Both the position numbers and the translations under genes were made by a program. The notes beneath the pieces are model-generated. The model did not search any database and had not been told where the DNA came from. It was given only the letters and a program-made list of their open reading frames with translations. Below, piece after piece: positions 3,671 to 63,095 of a stretch of DNA of 64,000 bases (position 1 is its first letter; each line of letters begins with the position of its first letter). The stretch covers positions 158,348,001 to 158,412,000 of the forward strand of contig NC_042998.1 of assembly GCF_006345805.1 (NCBI RefSeq), read 5' to 3'. This DNA is from Octopus sinensis. Its lineage: Eukaryota.

Positions 3671-4471
3671 TTGTCCGTCTCTTTATTTCTCCCTGTCATA
3701 TTTTTTACTGCGACAAAGATAAAAAGTTGTAATGGAAGGTAATTTAAAAGTCTTTAGCCTGAAATTCATTTGGTATTTACGGATCAAAGACGCAAGCTGA
3801 TTAAAGTGATGATGCATGTAGGTGGTAAAGATAGGCAAGCTGTTGTTGTTCGTGGGTGTTTAGGTTACAAGCAACCGCCTCTTCACATATTGAAGATGCT
3901 TTAGACGGGAAATTTTTTTCCTGTCGTTTTCTTTGCTTTCTCTTTTTTTATATTCTATAACATTCAGTTAAGAACAGATGATTAACTGATGCTGTATATG
4001 CAATAATTGTTTTGGTGGAATATTATACAATGCATATAATGCCCCTTCGAAACAAGGTCACCTCACAATGAATCTTTACCAAATTCTTATCCTTTTTAAG
4101 TCACTTGGTATGATTCATAAAAATTTAACACTTTTTTTCTAGTATATCAATTGACTACATATAGACTACATTGAAGGCTCTACTTTAATAATTGTTGTCG
4201 TTATTTTATTGTTAGTCCCGATCAAACCGCGATAAAGGCTCGGTCCAGCCATGAGTGTACAGCCGACGCCATATGCTGCGTCCCTTTATAAAGAGATAGA
4301 ACTTGATTTGAGCAAATCGAGCAGCCACATAGAGGATCGTTAATTTGTTTCAAGGGGTAAAGTGATAGACAATAAGGTAAAGTAACCAACGCATCTTTTT
4401 CTGAAGCTTTAAAAATTCTGTTAATCCACTGCCTGCTTCCAATCCGAAATTTTAATAATAATTCTTCCTCA

Positions 4472-6640: not shown

Positions 6641-6719
<79 letters not shown>

Positions 6720-6727
6720 TAATAATA
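6614..6727. repeat. Compound (CAC)(CAA)(AAT)n microsatellite, continuous with the 3' tail of the adjacent SINE
   Basis: Direct reading. Confidence 0.9.
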
Positions 6728-6940
6728 TTTTCTACTAAAGACACAAGGCCTGAAATTTAGTGGGAGTGGACTAGTCATTTGCATGAACCCCAGTATTTCA
6801 CTGGTACTTAATTCATCGACCCCGAAAAGATGAAAGGCAATGTCGACCTCGGCGGAATTTGAACTCAGAACGTAAAGACGGACGAAATGCTGCTAAGCAT
6901 TTTGCCTCGCATGCTGTCGATTCTACTAGCTCGCCGCCTT
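6728..6940 (-). mobile_element. tRNA-derived SINE (Meta/MESC-like)
   Basis: cgaccccgaaaagatgaaaggcaatgtcgacctcggcggaatttgaactcagaacgtaaag; full-length copy. Confidence 0.85.
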
Positions 6941-16637: not shown

Positions 16638-16672
<35 letters not shown>

Positions 16673-17219
16673 GAGTGAGAGAGCAGTGCATGCCATCAAA
16701 GTGACACTGGGGTAAAATATACGAAGCCCAATATACCCATCATGACTACCCGTCTGATAATGGTACACCAGGCACATGCATCACAACCATATGTGCGCGA
16801 CATGGGGATCTCATATCAAGATAAACAGCACATGACCTTGCAGGTGGGGCCCAGTTAGAATTTTCTTCAGGTTGAGTAGCCCATCCCGCTCAAACGGTCC
16901 CTGAATAAGGGTTGTTTAAGGAACCACCCATGTTTCCAGAGGCGAACTATTCAAACCCCAAAGAATCCCTCTCAACACATGGCTATGATGCTCCCCCACT
17001 ACTTCTGCTCGTGATCAGAGATGCACATATCGTCAGCCACTAAGGGACATGCTCAACTGGTTAAGGTCAAACAACTGACAAGCAAATCTGTGGTATTGAG
17101 CAGAATATTTGCTGTAGCCCATCTTTTATACCAAGACAAAACAATGTACATGATACACTTCCAATTAGTTAAGATCAGAAGCCATGAGAGCCACTGCCTG
17201 GTACTGCATCAGGGCATTT
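16673..17219 (-). mobile_element. ~550-bp (AAT)n-embedded non-autonomous element, full-length copy 1
   Basis: Highly similar to 43432-43964, 59238-59795 and 61355-61849. Flanked on both sides by (ATT)n. Strand assigned by analogy with the Dong elements. Confidence 0.85.
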
Positions 17220-17260
17220 ATTATTATTATTATTATTATTATTATATTATTATTATTATT

Positions 17261-17377
17261 GAGTGAAAGAGCAGTGCATGCCATCAAAGTGACACTGGGG
17301 TACAAATATACGAAGGCCAGTATACCCATCATGACTACCCGTCTGATAAGGGTCACCAGGCACATGCATCACAACCA

Positions 17378-17380
<3 letters not shown>
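17261..17380 (-). mobile_element. ~550-bp element, truncated copy retaining the inferred 3' 120 bp
   Basis: gagtgaaagagcagtgcatgccatcaaagtgacactgggg...acaaccatat between (ATT)n tracts. Confidence 0.85.
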
Positions 17381-17594: not shown

Positions 17595-18005
17595 AGGCAG
17601 GAGAGTATGTTGAGCCGGCAGAAACGTTAGCACGCCGGGCGAAATGCTTAACAGTATTCCGTCTGCCGTTACGTTCTGAGTTCAAATTCCGCCGAGGTCG
17701 ACTTTGCCTTTCATCCTTTCGGGGTCGATAAATTAAGTACCAGATACGCACTGGGGTCGATATAATCGACTTAATCCGTTTGTGTGTCCTTGTTTGTTCT
17801 CTCTGTGTTTAGCCCCTTGTGGGTAGTAAAGAAATATGCATTTCGACCGTCGCTACGTTCTGAGTTCAAATTCCGATGAGGTCGACTTTGCCTTTTATCT
17901 TCTCAGGGTCGATGAAATAAGTACCAGTTGAGCACTAGGGGTTAATGTAATCGACTAGTCCCTTTCCTCCAAAATTTGCAAAGCCTTGTGTCGAGAGTAG
18001 AAATA
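17595..18005 (+). mobile_element. Two tandem Meta/MESC-like tRNA SINEs
   Basis: gagttcaaattcc (B-box-like) plus gaggtcgactttgcct.. core, twice. Confidence 0.85.
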
Positions 18006-18029
18006 TGAATAATAATAATTATTATTGTA

Positions 18030-20579: not shown

Positions 20580-20934
20580 TGAGAATCTGTGTCTGTCTGT
20601 ATGTGTGCATCACTAAAACTCGAAAACTACCCAACCGATTTCATTCAAATTTTACACATGCCTTCCTTAGGGGCCATGCAGTGTCATGGACTAAAACTGT
20701 CAACTTCTTGCATAATGCGAGTCTGGAGCAATCGCTTATCTCTTACACTATTCCAATATTACGTGTCGAAAGTGAAACAATAACATCCCCTCATAATTGT
20801 AAGAATTTTATATTCGTGGAAGGCGATGTAAAACGTTCGCAGGTGAATAGGGTCTCTTCGTTTTGCACGAACGGCAGCGGATGTGCTGTTACAAAACTTC
20901 ATGCTGTGTTAAAAGAGAGTGGATTTCCTATGTA

Positions 20935-22740
20935 GGCAAGAGACAGGCCCAAAAACCTGCCCTTTTTTAATTAAATGAATGAGGTAAGCCAGTTTCTGCC
21001 TGAAAACCCTTGCAATAATATCATGGCGATGACAGTACTGCTGCCCTGGGAGAAGTTCTCGCGTTACCTCAACCCACTTTGGGTTACATGTAAAGGTAAT
21101 GAATAAATCGGGTCGCCCATAATGCCGAACGTAAGTCATCGCGTTTTGTGTTCGCTCGTGCATGTACCGTGGGCCCCCTGTATAGGTTGAGGGGAGAATG
21201 CACATTTTGCCGATATTGCGGGCGTCAGTGTCATTCCTGATGCTATCACGCAAATGGATGTAGGAGTCTGAGCGCAGCTGCTTCTGATTCAATTTGATGA
21301 AGCACAGTCTCTCGGACTCCATCTTTGCAGCCATGTCAACTGCAAACTGGTGAAACAGTTCCCGTGATCTGTGCAGGGGGTTGAAATCATTATGCCTTGT
21401 CATGAAGCGGTATGAGTAAAAAGCCATACATGAAACGGTTTTAGATGTCGCAGCCGAGGGCTCGTTTGGTTTGTGGTCAGAAATGCCGAAATGGTACCCG
21501 TCTTCTCCATACGGAAAAAGAAGGGGATACTGCAGGGCGTCATATGACCGATGCGTCTCATTAATACGCTGAAGACCACTGTCGCGGCTTTGAAGAACGA
21601 TGTCTCGCTGCTTGTGCTGTTCACCATGGAAAACTATGGCCACTTTATTGCACGAAGGAGCGTTATATCGGCGCGCGTGCTCCCCAGAAGGCTTTTTGTG
21701 AGCATCGATGACAATGGTGAATGTTGGTGAAGGGGCTGTTTTCAAGGCCTATTTGAAACTGCGAATATAGCTGTTGTGGTCATGGAGCATGTTTTGCAGA
21801 GTGAGCAGCACGTCCCTGGCGAAATTGTCAGTGTCAGTGTTTGCAGGTTGTGGAATTACGTCGAAACGCAAATCAAGTTGCCTATTGTAATTTGTAATGA
21901 AATAAATTTGAAGGAAGGAAGGTTTGCAATTTTGTAGTGGCTGGAGTGACCCAATAAGGTGGTACACCTGGCCCTGGACCTTGAAAGTAGGCATCCAACC
22001 AGTTTCTCTGACAACGTTAGCCCCGAAAGAAGTCATCTGAAATGCACAATTGTACTTCCTGATGAGTTGAAGGAATTTTGATTACCTTGAGGTGGAACCA
22101 GTAAGTAATTCCTTCAAAGGGTCTGGCAGCTCCCGAAGAGGGGGCAAGCTGACCTTACCGTTTAAGCAGCACATCGCAGGCGGTCCCCAGCCCAGTTTTT
22201 AGCATTGCAGAATTGGCAATTGAAGCACATTTCCCCAATATTTATGTCAGCGTGCATAGAGTAATTGAAGTTGGGCTCATACTTGAAAGCACGTAGATGC
22301 CAGTAAGGGCTGTTTGGACTCGTCAGACCGCGGCGTCGACTGTTCCGCTGGAATGTAGAACGTTGCTGGTCTGAGTCGTGGGAATTTGTCGAAAATGTTG
22401 AAGCAGCAGTAGCCGCAGCGTTTGTAGCCAGTGGAGTGGCCCTTTGTTGTGGGTCCTCTGAAGCCCTTTGTGCAGCAACAGCAGAAGCCTTTATGGCGCT
22501 GCGCTTCGACCTTGTTTCCGGACCGTCTGAAGCCGTGGAAGCAGCATCGTATGGAGCCATTTTTGCTAGTCGTGCGTTGCGCTGTTGTAAATTTTCAGCA
22601 GCTCGTGATTGCGCTGAACGTAAGGCGCTCTGTGAAAGTCTGAAAGCCTTTTTGTCGGAAGACTCGTTTGCGATAATCGCCTTTTGCGTCGCTGCTGCTG
22701 CAGTATGGCGGCCGAGGCGACTTCTCTTTTTCGGTGGCAT
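20935..22740 (-). pseudogene. Helitron RepHel N-terminal part (Zn-finger region and Rep motif 1), disrupted and truncated before the HUH motif
   Basis: MPPKKRSRLGR, CQFCNAK, FQMTSFGA, FKVQGQVYHLIGSL, YDALQYPLLFPYGEDG, LPSTYTGGPRYM, GRPDLFITFTCNPKW, RHDIIARVF. Frameshift at ~22185 and internal stops. Confidence 0.93.
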
Positions 22741-24012
22741 TTTATGTGAAAGAGAAAGGGTGAAAGTTACTTAAAGATAGAAATTGTAATGTGAATGAAA
22801 TGTGGAAAAATGTAAACCGTGGAAGGAAAAGAAAGAAATATTAGCAGCTGAAAGAAATTTTTTATGCAAGTATAGCGACAGAGTGTGTAAAATGTATTGA
22901 AATTTGAGTTAAAAGCAAGAAAATAAGGTTAGATTTGCAAGAATGGAAGTAGTTTACGTACGTGTTCGAAATGTGAAATTTTAGTTGTTTAATCAAATAT
23001 TTGCGTAAAGTGTATAGAAACGTAAGTTGAAAAAGAAAATGAATTGAAATTTTTAAGAAAGGAATTTGTTTACATACATGTGTCAAATGGCAAATGTTTG
23101 TGCAGTTGTCCGAAATGGAACCAGGGTAAATGTGTGGAACTGATGTATTATAATGAATAGTCCTTCTTGAACTGAAAACCCAGTGGTGTAGCATATAAGA
23201 CCATAGGGGATCTTCTTCTTGCAAAAAGGGATGACCAGTCTGAATGGCTCATCCCTGTCACACACACACACACTCACACACACACACACACACGCACACA
23301 CACACGCACACACACACACACACACGTTAGCTTACAATTTCTTTCAACAATTGACACTGTCGTATATATTTGCGTGTGTATGTGTGTAAAGAGGAAGTGG
23401 GAGTAATAGGCAGAGTAAAGGCTTTGAAGTGAAAGAGTGAAATGTTAAAATATTGAGTTTTCTCGAATTTTTTCTTAATTGGGGGTGAAATTAAAAGAAA
23501 TTTTGTATGGCATGACCGAATGGAAGTACTTGGAAAAATCATAGGTAAACTCTAATTGAAGAAATTGTGTGAGGAGTAAATCGTTATGTATTTATTTGTT
23601 TCTGTTTGCTTTTTGTTTTTTTTTTTTAGTAGTGGTTTAAGGTACACTTGCAAAGAGAAAGTAGGAGAAATTAGGGTGATAGCATGAGTGAAGCAGTTCA
23701 TCCCTGTTATATAAAAAGTTTCACTTTAATTGTTGTACACTTGCAAAGAGAAAGTAGCAGAGATGTGGTGGTAATGGTATGAGTGAAGCAGTTAAAATGA
23801 AAGAGGAAAATCTAAAAATATAGAGTTTTCTCGAATTTTTGCTTAATTGGGGTTGAAATAGGAAAAACTGTACCTGCCACGACCCGATGTATTCTACTCG
23901 TAAAAATGATAGGTAAATTCTAATTGAAGAAATTCTATATTGTAGATTTGTATAATAAACAAACGGTTGGAAGGCAGATAAAATCTGCCTTTTATAATAA
24001 GAAATAAGAAAT

Positions 24013-26159: not shown

Positions 26160-26670
26160 TTTGCTCTGTTTTATAAACCAGAGCAATGTGAAAAACAAAA
26201 TTGATTCCGATAGTTCTTGAACGCAGAACGTAATATTCTTTCTGTGTTTGGCAAAAGGTAAGGAATCTTGACGGGTGGGGAAGTCGATTACATCGACTAT
26301 ACTGCTGAACTGATATTTATTTTATCGATCCCGAAAGGATGAAAGACAAAGTTGACCACGGTGATGTTTGAACTCAGAACTTAAAAACGAACGAAACATT
26401 GCGAGGCATTTTTTCCGGCGAGCACACGATTCTGCCAAGCTCGCAGCCTCAAGAAATAATATAATAATCCTCTCTACTACAGGCACGAGGCCTGAAATTA
26501 GTGGGAGGGGCTAGTCTATTACATCGACCCCAGGGTTTCACTGGTACTTAATTTATCAACTGAAAGGCAAAGTCGACCTCAGCAGCGTTTGAACTAGGAA
26601 CGGGAAATGAAACAAAACGCCGTCAAACATTTTGTCCCGCGTGCTCACAATTCTACTAGCTTTTCGCTTC
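26160..26670 (-). mobile_element. Cluster of 2-3 Meta/MESC-like SINEs
   Basis: gatcccgaaaggatgaaagacaaagttgacc; aaaggcaaagtcgacctc. Confidence 0.8.
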
Positions 26671-29456: not shown

Positions 29457-29472
29457 CAATAATAATAATATA
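29278..29472. repeat. (GAT)n/(AAT)n microsatellite, target of the Dong insertion
   Basis: Direct reading. (AAT)n resumes at 32461-32529. Confidence 0.95.
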
Positions 29473-32460
29473 ACATCCAAAACAAAATACAAAAAATGAG
29501 AAAAGATCTGTCGATTCTTAATGAAATCAGCAGACAATCAACGCTACTGAGCAACAAAAAGAAAACAAAAATACTCCGCAAATATAACAAAGGTGATGCT
29601 AACTGGAACTGAACCCAAAGTCACGTGGTTGCAAAGCACAACATTAGTAAGATTTACCTGAGATAAAAGAAAAGCTGAATCAAGATATCCTAGCCAAAGC
29701 ACAAAGGATCCGCCGGTACGAGAAACGCCAGCGCTTTTTTGAACAAAACAAAAAGTTCAACTCCAACCCCAAAAAGTTCTACCAAGAACTTGGCAAAAAT
29801 AAAATAGAAATTACTGCAGCACCAATGGCAGAAGAAGTGGAAGAATTCTGGAGAGAAATATGGTCGGCGAACGAACAACCAAAAAAAAGGAGTATCAAAA
29901 TAACAAACTCGGCATCTGAACAACTTTGGACCCCCATAACAACTGAAGAGGTCACACAGGCATTGCAAAGACTAAGCAACTGGAAGGCACCTGGGCATGA
30001 CAAGATCCCCAACTTCTGGTTGAAATATCTAACAGGAATGCACAAAAAGCTGGCTGAAAGCTTTAACAACATACTAGCAGAGCCAGAGACAATGCCTGAA
30101 TGGCTCACGAAGGGGAAAACCATCTTAATTCCCAAATCAAATGAGACAGCAAAACCAGAAAACTACAGACCAATAACCTGTCTCCCTACAATGTTCAAGG
30201 CATTTACTGCAGTGATATCGCAAAGGTTGAACAAGCACCTGGACGAAAACAAACTGTTCCCAGAAGAGCAGAAAGGATGCCGCAAAGGCTCATATGGCTG
30301 TAAAGATCAACTAATGATTAATAAAGCCATAACTGAAGACAGCCACAGAAAGAAGAAAGGCCTCAGTATGGCCTGGATCGACTACAAAAAGGCGTTTGAT
30401 AGCATCCCCCACACATGGATCCTCGAAACACTAGCCATTAACAAAGTAGCACCAACAATCATAAAATTCATAGGGCACTCTATGAATAAATAGCAAACAG
30501 TGCTACAGCTCCAAACAAAAGAGGGACTCATGAAAACCAAAGACATCTCCATTAGAAGAGGAATATTCCAGGGAGACACGCTCTCTCCACTCCTTTTCTG
30601 CTTGGCACTGTCACCCCTATCTGATATGCTAAATAGAACTGGATGCGGATATAAATATTACGGCAAAACGATCAGCCACCTTTTATATATGGATGACCTA
30701 AAACAATACGCTGCAAATGACAAACAGCTGGAAACACTATTAAAGACATTTCATGGATTTACCAAAGAAATAGATATGAAATTTGGATTAGAAAAATGCG
30801 CCAAAGTAACTCTGAAAAGAGGAAAACTAGTTAAGAGTAGCAACATCACACTAGATAAAACCAATGAAATAAAAGAATTAGACCAAAGCCAAACTTACAA
30901 ATACTTAGGAATCCATGAACTAAATAAGACACAACACACACAAATGAAAGAGAAATTAAAAAACGAATATTATAGACGAGTTAGATCAATACTAAAAACA
31001 GAGCTCAATGCTATAAACAAGATAATAGGTATTAACACTTTAGCTGTCCCAGTTATAAGTTACAGCTACAATATCCTTAACTGGCCACTAAATGAACTGA
31101 CCAAAATAGATAGGAAAACAAGAAAAATAATGACAGGATCTAGGATGCATCACCCAAAATCTGACATAGAAAGACTATATATACAACGTATAGAAGGTGG
31201 TAGGGGCCTTATACAACTGGAAAACTACTATAAAATAACCACCATAGGATTGCAAAAATATCTACTTCAGAAGGAAGGAAAGCTAATACAAATAGCGGCA
31301 AAACACGAGCAAAACAAAAAAAACTGTTCTCAGTATTTAAGGAAGCTGACAATACAAACAAGAAATCATACCACCTAATAAATATGAAGAAGAAGAAGAA
31401 GAAGAAGAAGAAGAAGAAGAAGAAGAAGAAGAGAAGAAGAAGAAGAAGAAGAAGAAAAGAAGAAGAAGAAGAAGAAGAAGAAGAAGAAGAAGAAGAAGAA
31501 AGAAGAAGAAGAAGAAGAAGAAGAAGAAACAACAAAAGCTATAAACAAATGAATCCAAACTAAAAATAGAACAGCAACGAACCATGATAAAACGATGGCA
31601 AGAAAAGCCCCTTCATGGTAAATACTGGACTAAACTAAACGCAAAAGAAATAGACAAAGAAAAATCCCAGCAATGGTTGAGAAGCTCAGGACTCAAAGCA
31701 GAAACAGAGGGATTTTTAATTGCAGCACAAGACCAAAGCCTCCCCACCAGAAATTACCAAAAACATGTAATGAAAAGAAATATAACAAGTAACTGCAGAA
31801 TATGTGGAGATGGACAAGAAACAATAAATCATATTATCTCTAGCTGCCCAGTCCTGGCTAAGAAGGAATATATTCACAGACATGATAGAGTTGGAACCTA
31901 CATACATAGGAAGCTATACCAACATTATGGAATAACAACAGAAAAAAGATGGTATAGGCACACACCAGAAAAGGTCACAGAAAACGAGAAAGCAACCATA
32001 CTCTGGAATATGCCGATACACACAGATAGAGAAATTAAGGCCAACAGGCCAGATATAGTTGTCAAAGATCATGAAGGAAAAAAATGCTTTCTAATTGATG
32101 TATCAATACCGGCTGATGACAACGTGTCTCTAAAAGAAATGGAGAAACTCTCAAAATACAAAGACCTAGAAATAGAGGTAACCAGAATGTGGAATCTAAA
32201 AACAGAAACAATTCCTATCATAGTAAGTGCATTAGGCATGATAAAAAAATATTCAGACAAATACATAACAAAAACACCAGGACTTACAAACACATATAAC
32301 ATACAGAAAATTGCACTACTAGGCACTGCACACATCCTACGCAGAACACTTTCCATACAATAACCATCAGAGCATCACAACAAATCACAGCACATACCCA
32401 AGGCACACAGAGCTGCGCTCGGTAGTGAAGTGAAAGCACGCTATAAAAATAAAACTACTG
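29472..32460 (+). mobile_element. R4/Dong-clade RLE non-LTR retrotransposon, 5'-truncated, lightly mutated
   Basis: RT motifs WKAPGHD, NYRPITCL, WIDYKKAFDS, GIFQGDTLSPLLF, YMDD, YKYLG. CCHC CRICGDGQETINHIISSC, RHD. RLE RPDIVV..LIDVSIP..KLSKY. TAG at 30491-30493, frameshift at ~31320. (AAT)n on both sides. Confidence 0.95.
31386..31528 (+). repeat. (GAA)n expansion inside the Dong ORF
   Basis: Direct reading. Confidence 0.95.
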
Positions 32461-32461
32461 A

Positions 32462-32529
<68 letters not shown>

Positions 32530-34627: not shown

Positions 34628-34735
34628 TGGAACAAATTGGGGCTGCAATAAAGGTGGAGCACTTGAAGAAAATACTCCGAAGGTGCTAAAATAATAAGAG
34701 GTGTTACCTTAGTTCACTGGTAGTGAACAGCTACT
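34628..34735 (+). mobile_element. Short 3' fragment of the R4/Dong family seen at 18030-18545
   Basis: attggggctgcaataaaggtggagcacttg..actccgaaggtgcta..gtgttacctta directly after (AAT)n. Confidence 0.6.
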
Positions 34736-34765
34736 AATATATATATATATATATTATATTATATA

Positions 34766-35751: not shown

Positions 35752-35945
35752 AAATTTTGGCACAAGGTTAACAGTTTCGGAGAATGGGGGCAAGATGATT
35801 ACAGCGATCCTAGTGCTCAGCTGGTACTTAATTCATCGACTCCGAAAGGATGAAAAGCAAAGTCGACCTTGGCGGAATTTAAACTCAGAGCGTAAAGACG
35901 AAGCATTTTTCCGGAGAGTTAACGATTCTGCCAGCTTGCCGCCTT
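35752..35945 (-). mobile_element. Meta/MESC-like SINE
   Basis: ctggtacttaattcatcgactccgaaaggatgaaaagcaaagtcgacctt. Confidence 0.85.
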
Positions 35946-39068: not shown

Positions 39069-39338
39069 AATGCCCTGATGCAGTACCAGGCAGTGGCTCT
39101 CGTGGCTTCTAATCTTAACTGATTGGAAGTGCGATCATGTACATTGTTTGTCTTGGTATAAAAGATGGGCTACAGCAAATATTCTGCTCATTACCACAGA
39201 TTTGCTTGTCAGTTGTTTGACCTTAACCAGTTGAGCATGTCCCTTAGTGGCTGACAATATGTGCATCTCTGATTACGAGTAGAAGTAGTGGGGGAGCATC
39301 ATAGCCATGTGTTGAGAGGAATTCTTTGGGGTTTGAAT
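39069..39338 (+). mobile_element. ~550-bp element, inferred 5' half, opposite orientation, following (AAT)n
   Basis: aatgccctgatgcagtaccaggcagtggctctc... is the reverse complement of the other copies. Confidence 0.85.
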
Positions 39339-40998: not shown

Positions 40999-42280
40999 CG
41001 AGGGGCGTTCAATAAGTAATGCCCCTGACCCACTTCCCATAGCAGTAGAGCAACGAAACTTAGCACAGTTATTAGTCTTTTTTTACATAGGAACCACCCA
41101 GAGTTACGCATATCTCCCATCGTTTGATGCAGCTCTGGATACCGTTTTTTTAGGAGACCCCAGCTTGGTCTTCCAACCACAACGTGACTTCAGAAATCAA
41201 GGCTGCATCATCTGGGAAATGCTTTCCTTTCAAAAACAACTTCATGGCTGGGAAGAGGTGAAAATCAGAGGGTGCAAGGTCAGGAGAGTAGGGGAGGAGT
41301 TCATTGCAGCACGCCTGTGCTTCTGATCTGGCGACACGCAAGTTGTGGACCGGAGCGTTGTCCTGCAGGAGGAGGATGCCTTTGCTGATCTTGCCCCGCC
41401 TCTTGATTTTGATAGCTTCTCTTAATTTCCTCAAAAGTGAAGCATAATAGGCTCCTGTAATTGTGATACCCTTTGCCAGGAAATCTGTCATCACTACTCC
41501 GTCCTGGTCCCAGAAGACTGTGAGCATGACCTTGCCAGCGGAGGGCTGCACTCTTGCCTTCTTTGGAGGAGGTGAGTTACGGTGCTTCCACTGCATTGAC
41601 TGGGCTTTTGTCTCTGGATCATAGTGATGGACCCAGGTTTCATCCTGTGTAATCAGTCTTTTGAAAAATTTTGATTCATCTTCTTGGCACATCTCCAAAT
41701 TCATCCTCGAGCACTCGACGCGTTCTTGCTTCTGGAAAGGTGTGAGCAACCTGGGAATCCATCTGGCAGACACCTTTTGCATATGCAAATGGTCATGAAT
41801 GATAGTTTCTACAGACCTGGTACTAATCTTGACATCATGGGCTATTTGGCAAATAGTTATGCGTCGATCTTCCAAAATTGCAGCCTCAACTTGACGGACA
41901 TATGCCTCATCAATGGCAAAGGGGGCGACCAGATCTGGGAGCTGTTTCCACAGAGTTCCGACCATGTTTGAATTCACGATGCCAGCGTTTTACAAGGTCA
42001 TATGATGGGGCATCATCACCATAAGTTACTTTCATTTCATCAAAAGTCTCCCGTGATGTGCGTCCTTTCAAATACAAAAACCGGATCACTGCTCGACACT
42101 CAACAGGCTCCATTTCACACTTGACTCAGTTCAAACACCTGTAAATCAGAAACCACAATTAGTTCAGAGCTGTAATTTTTCACTGAATGTATAGAGATAT
42201 AAATAATTGCACATGCAAAATTTCAACTAGATTAAACAATTGCAAGTGGGTCAGGGGCATTACTTATTGAACGCCCCTCG
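40999..42280 (-). mobile_element. Full-length mariner (irritans/Hsmar2-like) with perfect 37-bp TIRs and TA TSD
   Basis: TA|CGAGGGGCGTTCAATAAGTAATGCCCCTGACCCACTT...AAGTGGGTCAGGGGCATTACTTATTGAACGCCCCTCG|TA. Confidence 0.97.
41085..42113 (-). pseudogene. Mariner DD34D transposase, frameshifted
   Basis: MEPVECRAVIRFL..PRSGRP, frameshift, then ARWIPRLL, ITQDETWVHHY, LLQDNAPVH, PYSPDLAPSDF. Small deletion before YSPDL and a further frameshift near the C-terminus. Confidence 0.95.
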
Positions 42281-43431: not shown

Positions 43432-43964
43432 GAGTGAGAGAGCAGTGCATCCCATCAAAGTAACACTGTGGTAAAATATACGAAGCCCAGTATACCCATC
43501 ATGACTACCCTTCTGATAAGGGTACACTAGGCACATGCATAACAACGTGGTGATCTCATATCAAGACAAACAACGCATGACCTTGCAGGTAGGGCTTAGT
43601 TATAATTTTGTTCTGGTCGAATAACCCATCCCGCTCAAAAGGTCCCTGAATAAGGTTTGTTGAATGAAACACCTATGTTTCCAGAGGTGAATTATTCAAA
43701 CCCAAAGAATCCCTCTCAACACATGGCTATGATGCTCCCCCACTACTTCTACTCGTGATCGGAGATGCACATATCATCAGCCACTAAGGGACATGCTCAA
43801 CTGGTTAAGGTCAAACAACTGACAAGCAAATCTGTAGTATTGAGCAGAATATTTGCTGTAGCCTATCTTTTATACCAAGACAAAACAATGTACATGATAA
43901 CACTTCCAATCAGTTCAGATCAGAAACCACGAGAGCCACTGCTTGGTACTGCATCAGGGCATTT
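43432..43964 (-). mobile_element. ~550-bp (AAT)n-embedded element, full-length copy
   Basis: Same termini gagtgagagagcagtgcat...gcatcagggcattt, with (ATT)n on the left. Confidence 0.85.
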
Positions 43965-56777: not shown

Positions 56778-58954
56778 GAATATCCATATATGTGTGCATA
56801 TGCGTATGTGCATAAGTGTGCCTTTGTGTATACGTATGTGTTAGTGTTCATCCTTGTGCGTGATGTATGTCTGTTTTCTTGGTGTATATGTAATCCTCCT
56901 GGCTATACTTCACTAAGTCTTTCTCTCATATCTTTCTCTTATACTCATTCATCCACTCTCACCCCTCTTTTACATACCCACATTCTGGCTTATTATCCCA
57001 GATACTCAATTATATACAAAAACTCCAGCCGTTTCCCTAACTTAATTTTTTTGCATCATATATTTTATCAATGAGATGTTATCTGAAATCCATTTTGCAA
57101 TATTAAATCGGCGAAGATTTACCACTTTACGACAATGACGGAATCGTTTCCTTTTTACTTAGAAACTAAATAAGACTGTAAAGTTGTCCACCACTACCTA
57201 CTGCTATCTTTCACCACCACACCACATACTTTTACTACTGTAAATATTTATATGTGGTGATTGATTGTATTTTCGTACCGTAAGTATATATCTATAACAA
57301 ATGTTCACTAAAATACGTGCCGCTGGCTAAGCTTGCATTCATTAGAGATATTTCTGACTTATCTCGCATCATTTATTCAGTATATTAAGCTTAACTGTAC
57401 TCTCATGCCTTATGACTGCTATTTCAGGAATAGTTGGACACTAGCCTCATCGATCCTATGCGAAAAAAATATGGCTTCACGTTATGCTAGCCACGCCACA
57501 TGTTAATTACTGGATCCTACTGATCTTAATAATGATTACATTCCCATCAATAATACATGATACTTTAATGGCACAAATTAATTATAATAAGAATTATATA
57601 AAGAATTCATACGTTGCCTTGTTTTCTTGTGTAAAACATTTTTTTTCACGTTGCACCAGTCCACTCAGCTGCAATCGACTGGCGTTCGATTCAGGAGGAA
57701 CTGCCCGCTTAGTTAGCTGGGTGGCACCACTCGAATGCTACAAAAAGGTGAGAAAGCACTTCGTAATCAGAGGTGTATAACAACTTCTGGTAGTCTAGTC
57801 GATATACAAAAAGCAGTGATATTTTAATCACTGTTACATGCTACTTTCTCGTATATACTAATCATGATAGTACGAGTTCCCTTCACAGACCGGACCTTCA
57901 TCAGACACTTGGTACATTTTACAGAAACATGCGTCACAGACAACGCAGCAACATTCATAGCTGTGCACTATGATAGGGTATAACCTGCTGACTGGATATC
58001 AATGTCTCGTATCCTACCACTAGCTACTTGATGTGTATCTGACGAAAACAATTCACTCTTACACTCACTCTGCCTATCTGAAAATAAGTACCCTACTGAG
58101 GGAGTTTCACTGCTATGAACGTCAGGAGCATTTTATAATTCTTGAAATTTAAGATTGTTTCCAGTTTTATGACGAAATCTTGCCAGCTGTTACCGGAGAC
58201 TCGACGAAGTTATACAACAATTATCCATGAAAGTATCTGATATATTGAATGAATGTATGTAAATGCGAGAGTATGTATTTAAGTATACGTGCGCGTGCAC
58301 ACATACACACATACGGGCACAAACACATGCATAATTATAGGCAAAGAAGGCAGACAGAAGTAGGCAAATATGTGTAAGGTAATGAAGTGGCTGTTTGATG
58401 CCAGACTAGGTTCTTTATGACATCAAAATTAAACACTGAATTCTGAGTCAGAATAATCAACAAGGTTCATTTCGTTCGAAAATAGCTTGATAAAATAAGT
58501 AATTTCTCGGGATTAAATTGGCTAAAGAATCCCCAACAGCGTATGTCTTTGGAATAAGTAGAGTATTAACCTCAGTGTTATTTGGGATTATATTTCTACG
58601 AATTTGTAGCGACCAGTTTTATCTAAGATCTCAGTCCATGATGAAAGAGCGCCGCGTAGTTTCGATTTATTTTTCTATACTCACCATTAACGTTATTATT
58701 CTAGAGAAATGTGTGAAAATTACATAATCGCTAAACCTTCCGGCTAATGAATTAAACTCTATCATGGTCACTAGAACTTCTACAAAATGCAACCAGGTAT
58801 CTCTCAAATGACATCCTCCCGTCTTAAAGAATGGTCTATTGGACATTTCAGTCCTAGTTGATATTTGAAGCTATTGATAGATGACATATGACCATTGCTC
58901 CACCTAATTAGGGTTTTTCTTCAGCTTAGTAACGGAAGCAAGAGCAGTTTGTAA

Positions 58955-59170
58955 TAACTCTTTCTACTGTAGGCACAAGTCCTGAAATTTTAGGGAAGGG
59001 GACTAGCCGATTACATCGACCTTAGTGTTCGACTGGTAATTTTTTCATTGATTCCAAAAGGACGAAAAGCGAAGTCGACCTCGGTGGAATTAGGACTCAG
59101 AACATAAGACGGACGAAATAACATTAATCATCTTATCCGGAATGCTAATAATTCTGTTAGATCACTGCCT
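58955..59170 (-). mobile_element. Meta/MESC-like SINE
   Basis: tttctactgtaggcacaag..aaaggacgaaaagcgaagtcgacctcgg. Confidence 0.8.
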
Positions 59171-59237: not shown

Positions 59238-59791
59238 GAGTGAGAGAGCAGTTCATGCCATCAAAGTGACACTGGGGTGAAATATACGAAGCCCAATATA
59301 CCCATCATGACTACCCGTCTGATAAGGGTACACCAGGCACATGCATCACAACCATATGTGCGCGACATGGTGATCTCATATCAAGATAAACAGCACATGA
59401 CCTTGCAGTTGGGGCCCAGTTAGAATTTTCTTCAGGTTGAGTTGCCCATCCCGCTCAAAAGGTCCCTGAATAAGGGTTGTTTAAGGATGTTGAAAGAACC
59501 ACCCATGTTTCCAGAGGTGAATTATTCAAACTCCAAAGAATCCCTCTCAACACATGGCTATGATGCTCCCCCACTACTTCTGCTCGTGATCAGAGATGCA
59601 CACATCGTCAGCCACTAAGGGACATGCTCAACTGGTTAAAGTCAAACAACTGACAAGCAAATCTGTGGTATTGAGCAGAATATTTGCTGTAGCCCATCTT
59701 TTATACCAAGACAAAACAATGTACATGATAACACTTCCAATCAGTTAAGATCAGAAGCCATGAGAGCCACTGCCTGGTACTGCATCAGGGC

Positions 59792-59795
<4 letters not shown>
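59238..59795 (-). mobile_element. ~550-bp (AAT)n-embedded element, full-length copy
   Basis: Most complete-looking copy, with (ATT)n on both sides. Confidence 0.88.
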
Positions 59796-59861
<66 letters not shown>

Positions 59862-59879
59862 TTTATTTTTATTATTATT

Positions 59880-61142
59880 TAAGACATCGCACAGTATCCA
59901 ATATTGTGATGTTGTTAATTGAAGTTATTGTGTCTACTGGGGTTTGTACTGTCTGTCATGTCACAACAAGGACCTCAGACAGATAGTGCTTTACGCAATA
60001 TGCGTGCTGTTCCAAGTAATGCCGATTTTTGCAATACGCCTAGATTGCACGGTATTTCTAAAGTTTCCAGATGTTTCCTCAGGTTGGGTGGTATTGAAAC
60101 CAAAGCTCCGATGACAATAAGGACAAACTTTATATTTTACTCTCGTAGCTGCCACATCTTTGCGGTCTCAATTGTCAGTTCTCCATATTTATCAATCAAT
60201 TTTTTTTTCTTTCATGATAATATGTTGATCTTCTGGAGTCAAAGTCCCATAGGATTTTTACCTTCCCCTTTTCGTCCATTACCTGGTGTATGTTGGTGCC
60301 AAGCACCCGCCACGTCATATCCAAACTCCCGGCATAGTAGCCAGTGAAGTTTTTGCGCTACCTTGTCGTGTCTGTGCGTGAACACTTTCTGCGCAAGACT
60401 TTCACAAGCACTAACAATGTGAGTCACACTTTCGACCCCCTTTCCACACATTTTGCAGAAGTTTATTGCACTTGTGTGGTATATATCTCTTTTCATGGAG
60501 TTGATATTCAATGCCTGATCCTGGGCAGCGATGATTTGGTTTTCAGTCTTCTTTTTTTATGTCACCCTTGCTGAGTCGCATCCATTGGTGCTTCCTGATC
60601 TTTTAAGTTGTTAGTTTCACGGTGAAGCTTACCATGTAATTTCATGCGTAACAGAGTTTCTTCTCTCTCATTGGCTATTTGTGTTCGGAATTCATTAGCA
60701 CTCTCAAGTCCATTTTTGGTAAATCTTGCTGCATTAGCAACATACTGTAGCAGGTCTTGTTTGCTATTTATCAAATACTCTGCCATGCTTCTTCTTTCAC
60801 TTTTGGTGCACTCCCGTACGCTAATCAGCCCGCGCCCACCTTTACACCTCTTCATATAGAGCTTGTGTACGTTCGCCTTCAGGTGGAAGGCACCGTGCAA
60901 TGTCATTGTCTTTCGGGTTGTGCGATCGAGTTGGTTAATCTCCGCTCGTGTTCATTTCAGGATGGGTGCACTACAGTGGACTACAACAACAGCACATGTG
61001 TTGATGGCAGTCACAAGGTTCCCTCAGTTGAGTTTTGATTTCAAGATCAGTTTGAGGCGCATGAAATACGCAATGATGACCTTGTCTTTTATTTCCCTCT
61101 GCCAGATATTGTCCAGCTCCAGGATACCAAGATACTTGTACC
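59880..61142 (-). mobile_element. R4/Dong-type retrotransposon, different family, 5'-truncated and degenerate
   Basis: YKYLGILELD, HGAFHLKANVHKLYMKRCKGGRGLISV, KLHGK, CKMCGKGVESVTHIVSAC..RHDKVA, ALLGTARILRKAL. Confidence 0.9.
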
Positions 61143-61194
61143 ATCATCATCATCCGGGTCTTTCATTTTTACTCCATTTGCCAATTCTATGCCC

Positions 61195-61278
<84 letters not shown>

Positions 61279-61354: not shown

Positions 61355-61849
61355 GAGTGAAACAGCAGCGCATGCCATCAAAGTGACACTAGGGTACAAA
61401 TATACGAAATCCAACATACACATCATGATTACCCGTCTGATAAGGATACACCAGGCACATGCATCACAACCATATGTGCGCGGCATGGTGATCTCATATG
61501 ATAAACAGCGCATAACTTGCAGGTGTAGCCCAGTTAGAATTTTCTTCTTGTCGAGTGGCCCATCCCACTCAAAAGGTCCCTGAATAAGGTTTGTTTAAGT
61601 ATGTTGTATAAAACATCCATGTTTCCAGAGTTGAACTATTCAAACACCAAAGCATTCCTCTCAGCACGTAGTCATGATTCTCCCCTACTACTTCTGCCTG
61701 TGATCGGAGATGCACATATTGTCAGCCACCAAGGGACACTGGTTAAGGTCAAACAATTGACAAACAAATCTGTGGTATCGAGCAAAACATATACATGATA
61801 ACACTTTCAGTCGTCATGAGAGCCACTGCCTGGTACTGCATCAGGGCAT
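61355..61849 (-). mobile_element. ~550-bp element, older copy with internal deletions
   Basis: Same termini, between (ATT)n tracts. Confidence 0.85.
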
Positions 61850-61860
61850 GATTATTAATC

Positions 61861-61975
<115 letters not shown>

Positions 61976-61977
61976 TA

Positions 61978-63095
61978 GTAATAGTCTTATTCTTATCACG
62001 TGCTTTCACTGCACTATCGAATGCAGCTCTGTATGCCTTGGATATGTGCTGTGGTTTGTTGTGATGCTCTATTTTTTCTGTATTGAAAATGTTTTGCGTA
62101 GGATGTCCGCGGTGTCTAGTAGTTCTATTTTCTGTATGTCATATATACTTGTTAGTCCTAGTGTTTTTCTTATGTATTTGTCTGAATATTTTTTTATCAT
62201 ATCTAATGCGCCTACAATAGGGATTGTTTCTGTTTTTAGACTACACATTCGAGTTACCTCTTTGTCCCGATCCATGTATTTTGAAAGTTTTTCTGTTCCT
62301 TTTAGAGAAACATTGTCATCTGCTGGTATTGATATATCAATTAGAAAGCATTTTTTCTTGATGATCTCTGACAAATATACCCCGTCTATTGGCCTTAATT
62401 TCTCTATCTGTGTGTATTGGCATATCCTAGAGTATGGTTGCTTTCTCACTTTCTGTGACATTTTCTGACGTTTACCTATAACATCTTTTTTTCTGCTTTT
62501 ATTCCGTTGTGTTGGCATGGCTTCCAGTGTATATAGGTCTCAACTCTGTCGTGTTTGTGAATATATTTCTACTTAGCCAGGACTGGGCAGTCAGAGACAA
62601 TATGATTTACTGTTTCTTCTCCATATCCACATGTTCTGCAGTTAGCTGTATTTCTTTTCCTTACATGTTTTGGTAATTTCTGGTGGGAAGGCGTTGATCT
62701 TGTGCCGCAATTAAAAATCCTCCAGTCTCTGCTTTGAGTTCTGAGGTTCTCAGCCATTGTTGGGATTTTACTTTGCCTATTTCTTTTCTGTTTAGTTTCT
62801 TGCCATCGTTTTATAATGATGCGCAGCTGTTCCAGTTATAGTTTGGATTTCAGTTGTTTTACAGTTTTAGTTGTTTCTTCTTTTTCTTCATAGTTGTTAG
62901 GCATTATGACTTTATTTCTGTATTTGTCAACTTCCTTAAAGACTGAAAACAGTTTTTTTTTGTTTTGTTCGTGTTTTGTGGGAATTTATATTAGTTTTCC
63001 TTGCTTCTGAAGTAGATATTTCTGCAGTCCTATTTATTTTGTAATAGGTTTCTAGCAGTATAAGGTCTCTACCACCTTCGATACGTTGTATATAT
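61978..63095 (-). mobile_element. R4/Dong copy of the same family as 29472-32460, 5'-truncated
   Basis: CRTCGYGEETVNHIVSDC, KKCFLIDISIPADDNVSLK, and a matching 3' UTR (agagcatcacaacaaaccacagcacat..gtgaaagcacg). Confidence 0.92.

What the first reader, a model, noticed from the sequence alone, without database searches (positions are those of the whole stretch)
16673..17380. ~550-bp non-coding, non-tRNA element found only in (AAT)n: candidate non-autonomous partner of R4/Dong retrotransposons
Seen: six copies in 64 kb (16673, 17261, 39069, 43432, 59238, 61355), each touching (AAT/ATT)n. Orientation always tracks the microsatellite strand: the one flipped copy at 39069 sits in flipped (AAT)n. 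Full copies share both ends (AATGCCCTGATGCAG...CTCACTC on the AAT strand). I see no conserved ORF, TIR or tRNA head. The copy at 17261 keeps only the end that would be 3', as expected for TPRT truncation. Local stems are visible (GCCCTGAT/ACCAGGC; TTGCTTGT/ACGAGCAG). Known: Bombyx Dong (R4 clade) targets (TAA)n, and R2 elements have non-autonomous SIDE derivatives. Inference: a structured RNA mobilised by the Dong RT/RLE proteins found in this window, with a defined 5' end from an internal promoter or ribozyme. I do not see obvious 3' identity with those Dong families.
Basis: partly seen in the sequence, partly recalled or inferred. Interest (0 to 1): 0.72.

Follow-up and report, generated by a model that had tools for sequence, protein, structure and literature searches.

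The report
Octopus microsatellite-targeting hitchhiker retroelement
This is a 556-base non-coding repeat with tens of thousands of copies in what is likely an octopus genome, sitting almost always in AAT microsatellites and likely copied by the enzyme of Dong-type retrotransposons even though it shares no clear sequence with any Dong family examined.

Summary
Confirmed. The six window copies are real and belong to a 556-bp family of roughly 50,000 copies (estimate). The 3' end is fixed against (AAT)n on the same strand (5,749 of 6,696 exact 3' ends). Truncation is polar: 20 of 52 3'-anchored copies lack the 5' part, while 20 of 20 5'-anchored loci reach the 3' end. Junction register and short 5'-end duplications resemble those of two young Dong families with intact ORFs, and five element-Dong mosaics were seen. 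This supports target-primed reverse transcription by a Dong protein in trans. No tRNA or Rfam head, Pol III boxes, TIR, ORF or 5' HDV ribozyme was found. No sequence is shared with full-length Dong A or F; only a 3' hairpin weakly resembles an older family (p about 0.01, post hoc; covariance model negative). New: 170 bp of the middle is 96% identical to a Chapaev3-like TIR element. It is a new variant of a known kind (EhSINE1, SIDE, RIME). Repbase and Dfam could not be checked.

The parts
16673..17217 (-). Full-length copy of the 556-bp element (11-bp internal deletion; 1.1% substitutions from the family consensus)
17116..17217 (-). 5' head (consensus 1-102), origin unknown; holds a small hairpin (about 35-60) and a TATA-like octamer (89-96); candidate internal promoter (inferred)
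16946..17115 (-). Middle segment (consensus 103-272), 163 of 170 bases identical to the interior of a separate Chapaev3-like TIR repeat
16727..16772 (-). 3' hairpin (consensus 457-502); candidate Dong-protein recognition signal (inferred)
   Evidence: covariance-model test negative
17261..17380 (-). 5'-truncated copy (consensus 437-556) with (AAT)n on both sides
16639..16672 (-). (AAT)n array at the 3' end of copy 1
17218..17260 (-). (AAT)n array between the two copies
39070..39338 (+). Copy keeping consensus 1-270; (AAT)n upstream, 3' half lost, no AAT at the break
43432..43962 (-). Full-length older copy; long (AAT)n at the 3' end, only a short AT-rich run at the 5' end
59238..59793 (-). Full-length young copy (556 bp, 1.3% from consensus), (AAT)n on both sides
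61355..61849 (-). Older copy with internal deletions (10.5% from consensus), (AAT)n on both sides
29470..32463 (+). 5'-truncated, broken copy of young Dong family A (RT, zinc knuckle, RLE-type C-terminus) in (AAT)n; candidate mobiliser family; ends approximate
59860..61195 (-). 5'-truncated older Dong family copy between AAT arrays, next to copies 5 and 6; ends approximate
61975..63095 (-). Older Dong A-related 3' fragment ending in (AAT)n; ends approximate
34694..34740 (+). 3' UTR hairpin of Dong family D, the family whose hairpin the element's hairpin weakly resembles

Best explanation
The element is a 556-bp non-coding repeat inserted in one orientation in (AAT)n, and it is likely a non-autonomous retrotransposon copied in trans by the RT/endonuclease protein of the genome's Dong (R4-type) retrotransposons. 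Shown: fixed 3' end against AATAAT, variable 5' truncation, a discrete 5' end, short 5'-end duplications, two young Dong families with intact ORFs in the same target, and element-Dong mosaics. Inferred steps: (1) an RNA beginning at or within about 3 nt of position 1 is made, most likely by Pol II from an internal promoter (about 0.5; read-through about 0.25; RNA processing about 0.2); (2) Dong protein binds it through the 3' hairpin and an AAU-repeat tail rather than a shared sequence; (3) the endonuclease nicks the ATT strand of a microsatellite and primes reverse transcription; (4) second-strand joining occurs after ...AATAA, giving full, truncated or 5'-duplicated copies. Families A and F are the likeliest recent drivers, older families such as D earlier ones. 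The element is probably a mosaic: a Dong-dependent 3' part that picked up 170 bp of a Chapaev3-like TIR element and a head of unknown origin.
For: Polarity: 20 of 52 resolved 3'-anchored sites are 5'-truncated versus 0 of 20 5'-anchored loci lacking the 3' end (Fisher p 7e-4; 8e-3 if a 5' duplication is scored as a truncation). Among 61 bystander copies 26 are 5'-only and 6 are 3'-only truncated (p 5e-4). Target. Register: 75 of 81 young 3' junctions continue AATAATA; 33 of 56 young full 5' junctions follow (AAT)nAA; 8 of 20 truncated ones end in TAA; Dong A and F junctions are compatible with the same register. 5' duplications in 9 of 80 near-full copies, restarting at position 1 (joints), and by eye in at least 4 of 10 full-length Dong A 5' ends. 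Intact Dong ORFs of 1,226 and 1,235 aa; best PDB matches are R2 proteins. Mosaics L151 (element-Dong A-element), L105, L127, L146, L154. Dong targets TAA repeats (PMC3812793); O. vulgaris has recently active Dong-R4 families (PMC13282606).
Against: No sequence similarity to full-length Dong A or F, or near-full family 3 (blastn and nhmmer), and no convincing match to 24 Dong 3'-end clusters in unanchored alignment. A covariance model of Dong C/D hairpins did not find the element's hairpin. Dong junction registers are blurred by microhomology. Three of the five mosaics came from a pattern that selects for such neighbours, and deletions between adjacent copies could make them. 18 of 44 truncated copies have no AAT upstream; 15 of 61 bystanders lack the 3' end. 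No RNA data show a start, strand or level. No two-sided compensatory change was visible in the hairpin (output partly cut).
Confidence: 0.82

Rival explanations
1. It is an ordinary internally deleted or 3'-derived offshoot (SIDE, RIME or EhSINE type) of a Dong family that is rare, old or extinct and was not sampled, so a shared 3' or 5' end exists or existed. This is a sub-case of the best explanation that removes the claim of recognition without shared sequence.
For: The 3' hairpin matches family D's hairpin at 20 of 30 bases when anchored on the loop; 42 of 5,000 shuffles and 10 of 1,870 random pentaloops reach this. L146 and L154 join Dong D and C 3' UTRs to the element inside this hairpin. 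An O. vulgaris library lists 51 Dong-R4 families; I sampled 24 clusters of 3' ends and only 2 full 5' UTRs.
Against: The 30-base window was chosen after seeing the match; the covariance model was negative. A profile of Dong C-termini finds no ORF remnant. A genome-wide pattern for a Dong ORF end within 230 bp of the element's end gave 31 hits from several families, not one family. No RT ORF family recurs directly upstream of 22 truncated copies lacking AAT.
Confidence: 0.35
2. The mobiliser is a different retroelement (RTE, CR1 or Penelope type), and AAT bias arises because an AAU-repeat tail pairs with AAT-rich nicks.
For: RTE elements in octopus are recently active and end in a microsatellite (PMC9115989). 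Tail-target pairing is known for several LINE clades (recalled).
Against: The fixed junction register and 5' duplications resemble Dong. The mosaics seen are with Dong, though only Dong families were used as queries. The two non-Dong RT hits inspected have no flanking AAT arrays (L037, L183). Head and tail searches of 1.3 Mb found only element copies.
Confidence: 0.08
3. No promoter or processing is needed: read-through transcripts include upstream AAU repeats and the cDNA anneals to the target array, so every complete copy seems to start at the same base.
For: Most copies have AAT upstream; no Pol III boxes or ribozyme were found. R2 elements whose RNA includes upstream target sequence are a precedent (PMC3774820).
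Against: 5' duplications restart at position 1 with 0-3 upstream bases rather than inside a long repeat, which points to a cDNA that ends there.
Confidence: 0.25
4. It is a DNA-level repeat (MITE fragment, solo LTR or recombination-spread unit) enriched in microsatellites.
For: 170 bp is shared with a TIR element; some copies are 3'-truncated or tandem.
Against: No terminal inverted or direct repeats; polar truncation with AAT at the break; strict strand bias (97 of 100 AAT, 0 ATT).
Confidence: 0.03

Closest known systems
EhSINE1 / EhLINE1 of Entamoeba histolytica
   Same: 500-600 bp, no ORF, no identified small-RNA precursor, depends on a LINE in trans (PMC2996970; abstract and passages seen). 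That EhLINE1 is an R4-clade RLE element is recalled, not checked.
   Different: EhSINE1 shares about 70 bp with its partner's 3' end and inserts at T-rich sites; this element shares no such stretch with any Dong family examined and is tied to (AAT)n.
R2 SIDE (Drosophila); RIME and NARTc (trypanosomes)
   Same: Short non-coding partners of non-LTR elements; SIDE uses an RLE-type protein and a fixed target (PMC3414825, abstract seen).
   Different: They are internal deletions that keep the partner's 5' ribozyme or head and 3' end. No such homology or HDV ribozyme was found here. Kojima 2018 lists only RTE, Ingi, Vingi and R2 as producing bipartite derivatives (PMC5786205, passages).
Dong (Bombyx mori; R4 clade) and octopus Dong-R4 families
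   Same: Same (TAA/AAT)n target and orientation (PMC3812793), compatible junction register, 5' truncation, 5' duplications, a hairpin 50-80 nt before the tail.
   Different: No ORF. B. mori Dong has a 5' HDV-like ribozyme (PMC3774820); none was detected in this element, and Rfam gave none in Dong A or F either.
Chapaev3 non-autonomous elements (e.g. Chapaev3-1N2_AC)
   Same: The repeat that shares positions 103-272 has CAC-starting TIRs close to the published Chapaev3-1N2_AC TIR and TWA-like flanks (PMC3014272).
   Different: That is a separate DNA-transposon family; the element itself has no TIR.
tRNA-derived octopus SINEs (tRNA-CORE, tRNA-Deu)
   Same: Short, high copy, retrotransposed in trans (PMC8967140, passages).
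   Different: No tRNA head, no A box, three internal T4 runs.

Membership tests
Non-autonomous non-LTR retrotransposon (SINE-like, broad sense) | Short, non-coding, high copy, discrete ends | tested here: met
   556 bp, longest ATG-started ORF 50 codons, 95 near-full copies aligned, about 50,000 copies estimated
Non-autonomous non-LTR retrotransposon (SINE-like, broad sense) | Fixed 3' end, variable 5' truncation | tested here: met
   20 of 52 versus 0 of 20; bystanders 26 versus 6
Non-autonomous non-LTR retrotransposon (SINE-like, broad sense) | Target-site duplication | tested here: inconclusive
   Flanks are (AAT)n on both sides, so a duplication cannot be delimited
Non-autonomous non-LTR retrotransposon (SINE-like, broad sense) | Mobilised in trans by a LINE protein | not testable with these tools
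   Indirect only: shared target, register, mosaics
Classical Pol III SINE | tRNA, 5S, 7SL or snRNA head | tested here: not met
   ARAGORN 0 genes in 4 loci; Rfam no meaningful match at E up to 10
Classical Pol III SINE | A and B boxes; no internal T4 terminator | tested here: not met
   No A box with up to 1 mismatch; one weak B-like 9-mer at 118; T4 runs at 78, 334, 512
SIDE / RIME / NARTc (bipartite derivative) | 5' and 3' ends homologous to the autonomous partner | tested here: inconclusive
   Not met for Dong A, F and near-full family 3; weak hairpin likeness to family D not confirmed by a covariance model; other 5' UTRs not sampled
SIDE / RIME / NARTc (bipartite derivative) | 5' HDV-like ribozyme | tested here: not met
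   0 hits on the AAT strand with my own descriptor, which had no positive control; no Rfam ribozyme match; cleavage not assayed
EhSINE1 type | About 70 bp of 3' identity with the partner LINE | tested here: not met
   None against 24 Dong 3'-end clusters or by genome-wide pattern; unsampled families remain possible
MITE or solo LTR | Terminal inverted repeats or LTR-type ends | tested here: not met
   Self-comparison shows no terminal repeats; 40 3'-anchored and 20 5'-anchored loci show no recurring longer element
Penelope terminal repeat / retrozyme | Hammerhead ribozyme | tested here: inconclusive
   No Rfam hammerhead match; two core-like heptamers at 183 and 359 were not folded against a model
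Dong/R4 (for the candidate partners A and F) | Single ORF with RT, CCHC knuckle and C-terminal restriction-like endonuclease; TAA/AAT target | tested here: met
   ORFs of 1,226 and 1,235 aa flanked by (AAT)n; RVT_1 and zf-RVT; R2 proteins as best PDB matches; RLE motif read by eye
Dong/R4 (for the candidate partners A and F) | Placement in the R4 clade on an RT tree | not tested
   No reference R4 or Dong sequences were on hand

The most novel reading that the evidence does not exclude
A Dong/R4 protein has for a long time copied an RNA that carries none of its own sequence, recognising only a hairpin and an AAU tail, and the RNA's sharp 5' end is made by a self-cleaving structure that is not HDV-like: a natural, compact, microsatellite-targeted insertion cassette with a new kind of ribozyme, assembled partly from a DNA transposon.
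Probability: 0.1. Interest if true: 0.8.

Novelty: new variant of a known kind. Interest (0 to 1): 0.5.

Why it matters
RLE-type elements such as R2 are treated as strict about their own 3' UTR, and their known short partners keep partner sequence. A partner of a microsatellite-specific Dong element without shared sequence would show what the protein really reads in an RNA. The test is within reach: intact Dong A and F ORFs and near-consensus element copies (0.4% divergence) exist in one genome. The family also explains a sizeable, probably unclassified part of the repeat content (about 50,000 copies) and gives a case of a retroelement body shared with a DNA transposon. It does not overturn a principle: non-Pol III partners of non-LTR elements are known.

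Tried and rejected
Rfam on two copies: only chance matches. Rfam on Dong A and F loci: no ribozyme. HDV descriptor: 0 hits on the AAT strand, 4 overlapping hits on the opposite strand that I take as chance, 0 on the Dong A 5' end; no positive control. A possible decayed Dong ORF end near positions 360-415, noticed by eye, was rejected by a profile HMM. Unanchored alignment to Dong 3' UTRs: best z 4.0 and 3.0, long gappy matches to the wrong part of the element, rejected. Covariance model R1 from 14 Dong C/D hairpins: finds a D hairpin at E 1e-14, no element copy at E up to 10. 100-nt sliding folds: none below z -1.9. A 39-codon frame in the TIR element: no usable ESM Atlas hit, probably chance. 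Sequencing runs: RNA-labelled runs are contigs and cannot show start, strand or level; the three metatranscriptomes laid hold 1 to 18 contigs, in X15 including TIR-element junctions, which I read as carry-over of octopus sequence and not as evidence of transfer or habitat. Raw-read run X24 laid only 12 reads and gave no copy-number profile; a motif from its loose end matched 2 places in the genome, and a follow-up scan showed no link to the element (L169 and L170 were in the pool). Earlier findings: none by sequence or words.

Full report
1. Observation. All six copies are present at the stated coordinates and follow the AAT strand. The genome is 2.72 Gb. I infer that it is an octopus from its size and from recalled SINE families in the window; this was not tested. 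The copy at 39070-39338 keeps only positions 1-270 and has no AAT at its break, so the window alone shows one 5' and one 3' truncation.

2. Family size and ends. Exact probes give 5,093 5' ends and 6,696 3' ends, with reversed controls at 0. 5,749 of 6,696 3' ends continue with AATRAT and 3,130 of 5,093 5' ends follow RATA. Twenty evenly spaced 10-kb stretches held 5 hits, one of them a different repeat, which extrapolates to about 54,000 copies (95% range 15,000-139,000); the exact-match rate among bystander copies (6 of 46) gives about 51,000. A majority consensus of 95 near-full copies is 556 bp. 61 copies not picked by a probe range from 0 to 19% divergence, so the family has been active over a long period and recently.

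3. Polarity. I fetched 40 of the first 53 exact 3' sites: 22 full, 18 5'-truncated. I had skipped 11 sites that had an exact 5' probe upstream, and 2 more fell inside fetched loci. Counting these gives 20 truncated, 32 full and 1 unresolved. All 20 5'-anchored loci reach the 3' end, one through an 84-nt 5' duplication. Fisher p is 7e-4, or 8e-3 if that duplication is scored as a truncation. Of 61 bystander copies, 20 are full, 26 5'-truncated only, 6 3'-truncated only and 9 both (p 5e-4). Flanks, leaving out the best-score loci L001-L030, edge hits and the two TIR-element hits: 97 of 100 intact 3' ends touch AAT-type repeat and none ATT, against 2.7% background; 51 of 64 intact and 23 of 44 truncated 5' ends have AAT upstream. 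Short duplications of the 5' end occur in 9 of 80 near-full copies and restart at position 1. These are the marks of target-primed reverse transcription from an RNA with a discrete 5' end (inference from R2 biology, partly recalled).

4. Candidate mobilisers. 117 Dong-type C-termini in the fetched DNA fall into 24 clusters. Families A (about 4.0 kb, ORF 1,226 aa) and F (about 5.0 kb, ORF 1,235 aa) are young and have intact frames. The family A protein matches R2 proteins best in the PDB. Both sit in (AAT)n in the same orientation as the element, and family A shows similar 5' duplications (by eye, at least 4 of 10 full 5' ends). Junction register: 75 of 81 young element 3' ends continue AATAATA; 33 of 56 full 5' ends follow (AAT)nAA; 8 of 20 truncated ends follow TAA. 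Dong A (31 junctions with AAT, 14 without) and F (18 and 4) are compatible, but A-rich microhomology blurs them. Five same-strand mosaics were seen. L151 reads element 1-41, Dong A 3761-3913, element 493-556; L105 and L127 join Dong pieces to element 491-549 and 284-556; L146 and L154 join Dong D and C 3' UTRs to the element inside its 3' hairpin. L146, L151 and L154 came from a selective pattern. Template switching explains them, but so could deletions between neighbours.

5. No shared sequence. The element has no significant similarity to full-length A or F or near-full family 3, no convincing match to the 24 3' clusters, and no Dong ORF remnant. A genome-wide pattern for a G-T-A-type ORF end within 230 bp of the element's end gave 31 hits from several families; it does not cover families ending G-T-S or G-T-T. 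Head and tail searches over 1.3 Mb returned only element copies. The consensus folds better than shuffles on the AAT strand (z -3.3) but not on the other (z +1.0). Hairpins at about 35-60 and 457-502 score z -4.9 and -3.9 in windows chosen after viewing the fold; fixed 100-nt windows never pass -1.9. Three frequent variants in the 3' hairpin (460, 468, 498) keep pairing and one (502) breaks it; no two-sided change was visible (output partly cut). Anchored on the loop, the hairpin matches family D at 20 of 30 bases, reached by 42 of 5,000 shuffles, a post hoc test. A covariance model of C/D hairpins did not detect it. I therefore treat a Dong-derived 3' signal as plausible, not shown.

6. The 5' end. 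No tRNA or Rfam head, no A box, and three internal T4 runs argue against Pol III. No HDV-like fold was found on the sense strand, with an unvalidated descriptor, although B. mori Dong has one (PMC3774820). A TATA-like octamer lies at 89-96, too far inside to start a transcript at position 1, so its role is unclear. An internal Pol II promoter is my best guess. RNA runs were uninformative.

7. Composite origin. Positions 103-272 are 163 of 170 identical to the interior of a separate TIR repeat of about 490 bp. That repeat has 2,641 candidates genome-wide; 14 of 14 fetched loci carry at least part of the segment, and copies are 86-94% identical to their consensus. Its CAC-starting TIR and TWA-like flanks resemble Chapaev3-1N2_AC (PMC3014272). 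The shared segment ends at AATAA in 10 of 11 TIR copies scored, the register at which Dong-type 5' junctions form. This hints that an ancestor of positions 273-556 inserted into a TIR copy and took its upstream sequence along. Capture of an element fragment by the DNA transposon is not excluded.

8. Known kinds and novelty. It works like EhSINE1, R2 SIDE and RIME/NARTc, but fails or leaves open their defining end homology, and it is not a Pol III SINE, MITE or solo LTR. Kojima 2018 names only RTE, Ingi, Vingi and R2 as sources of bipartite derivatives. Nine literature searches turned up no description of a Dong-dependent short element. A 2026 O. vulgaris annotation reports 5 recently active Dong-R4 families and 893 recently active unclassified SINE families without describing them, so a consensus may already lie in its Zenodo library, Repbase or Dfam, none of which I could search. 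Papers seen: PMC13282606 parts 1-2 of 3 and a supplement search; passages of PMC9115989, PMC3812793, PMC3774820, PMC3014272, PMC5786205, PMC8967140; abstract and passages of PMC2996970; abstract of PMC3414825. PMC4795812 and PMC3308841 were not held.

9. Verdict. Real, and a TPRT-spread non-autonomous element likely driven by Dong (0.82). New variant of a known kind; interest 0.5. The specific partner, the recognition signal and the source of the 5' end remain untested.

Noticed in passing
L155-L168, L035:91-583, L120:6499-6917: A roughly 490-bp non-autonomous TIR repeat (Chapaev3-like ends, long degenerate internal inverted repeats, 2,641 candidates) that carries the element's positions 103-272.
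   Followed up: partly
L151:1390-1658: Three-part mosaic: element head, Dong A ORF end and partial 3' UTR, element tail, with normal AAT junctions on both sides.
   Followed up: partly
L063-L082, L171-L179: At least two young Dong families with intact ORFs (A, F) and about 20 older 3'-end clusters share the AAT target; many 3' UTRs hold a C-G-closed five-base loop about 45-80 nt before the tail. Family F has a 5' UTR of about 1 kb with simple repeats.
   Followed up: partly
L066, L072: Dong A copies with about ten or more tandem repeats of a short stretch at the 5' junction, at the true 5' end and at a truncation point.
   Followed up: no
run X24: A raw-read run under the same species label laid only 12 reads, none at the element's ends; its loose ends match the TIR repeat and an unknown sequence before position 326. 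Unexplained.
   Followed up: partly
window 20909-22770 (-): Helitron fragment (Helitron_like_N, E 9e-46) with an upstream frame that looks like the N-terminal part of the same element.
   Followed up: no
window 41150-41989 (-): Mariner-type transposase fragment (Transposase_1, E 2e-24).
   Followed up: no
window 17612-18026, 6706-6939, 26231-26661, 35754-35944, 58952-59156: Many copies of other short repeats that often abut AAT arrays; they look like known octopus tRNA-type SINEs (recalled).
   Followed up: no
L139:6444-6999 and neighbour; L106: Near-identical tandem element copies separated by short AAT runs; local duplication, co-copying or assembly artefact.
   Followed up: no
window 32000-32100 region, consensus positions about 109 and 270-274: 3'-truncated or interrupted element copies often break at internal AAT-like spots (about 109 and 270-274), which may act as secondary insertion or deletion sites; the window copy at 39070-39338 is one case.
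   Followed up: no
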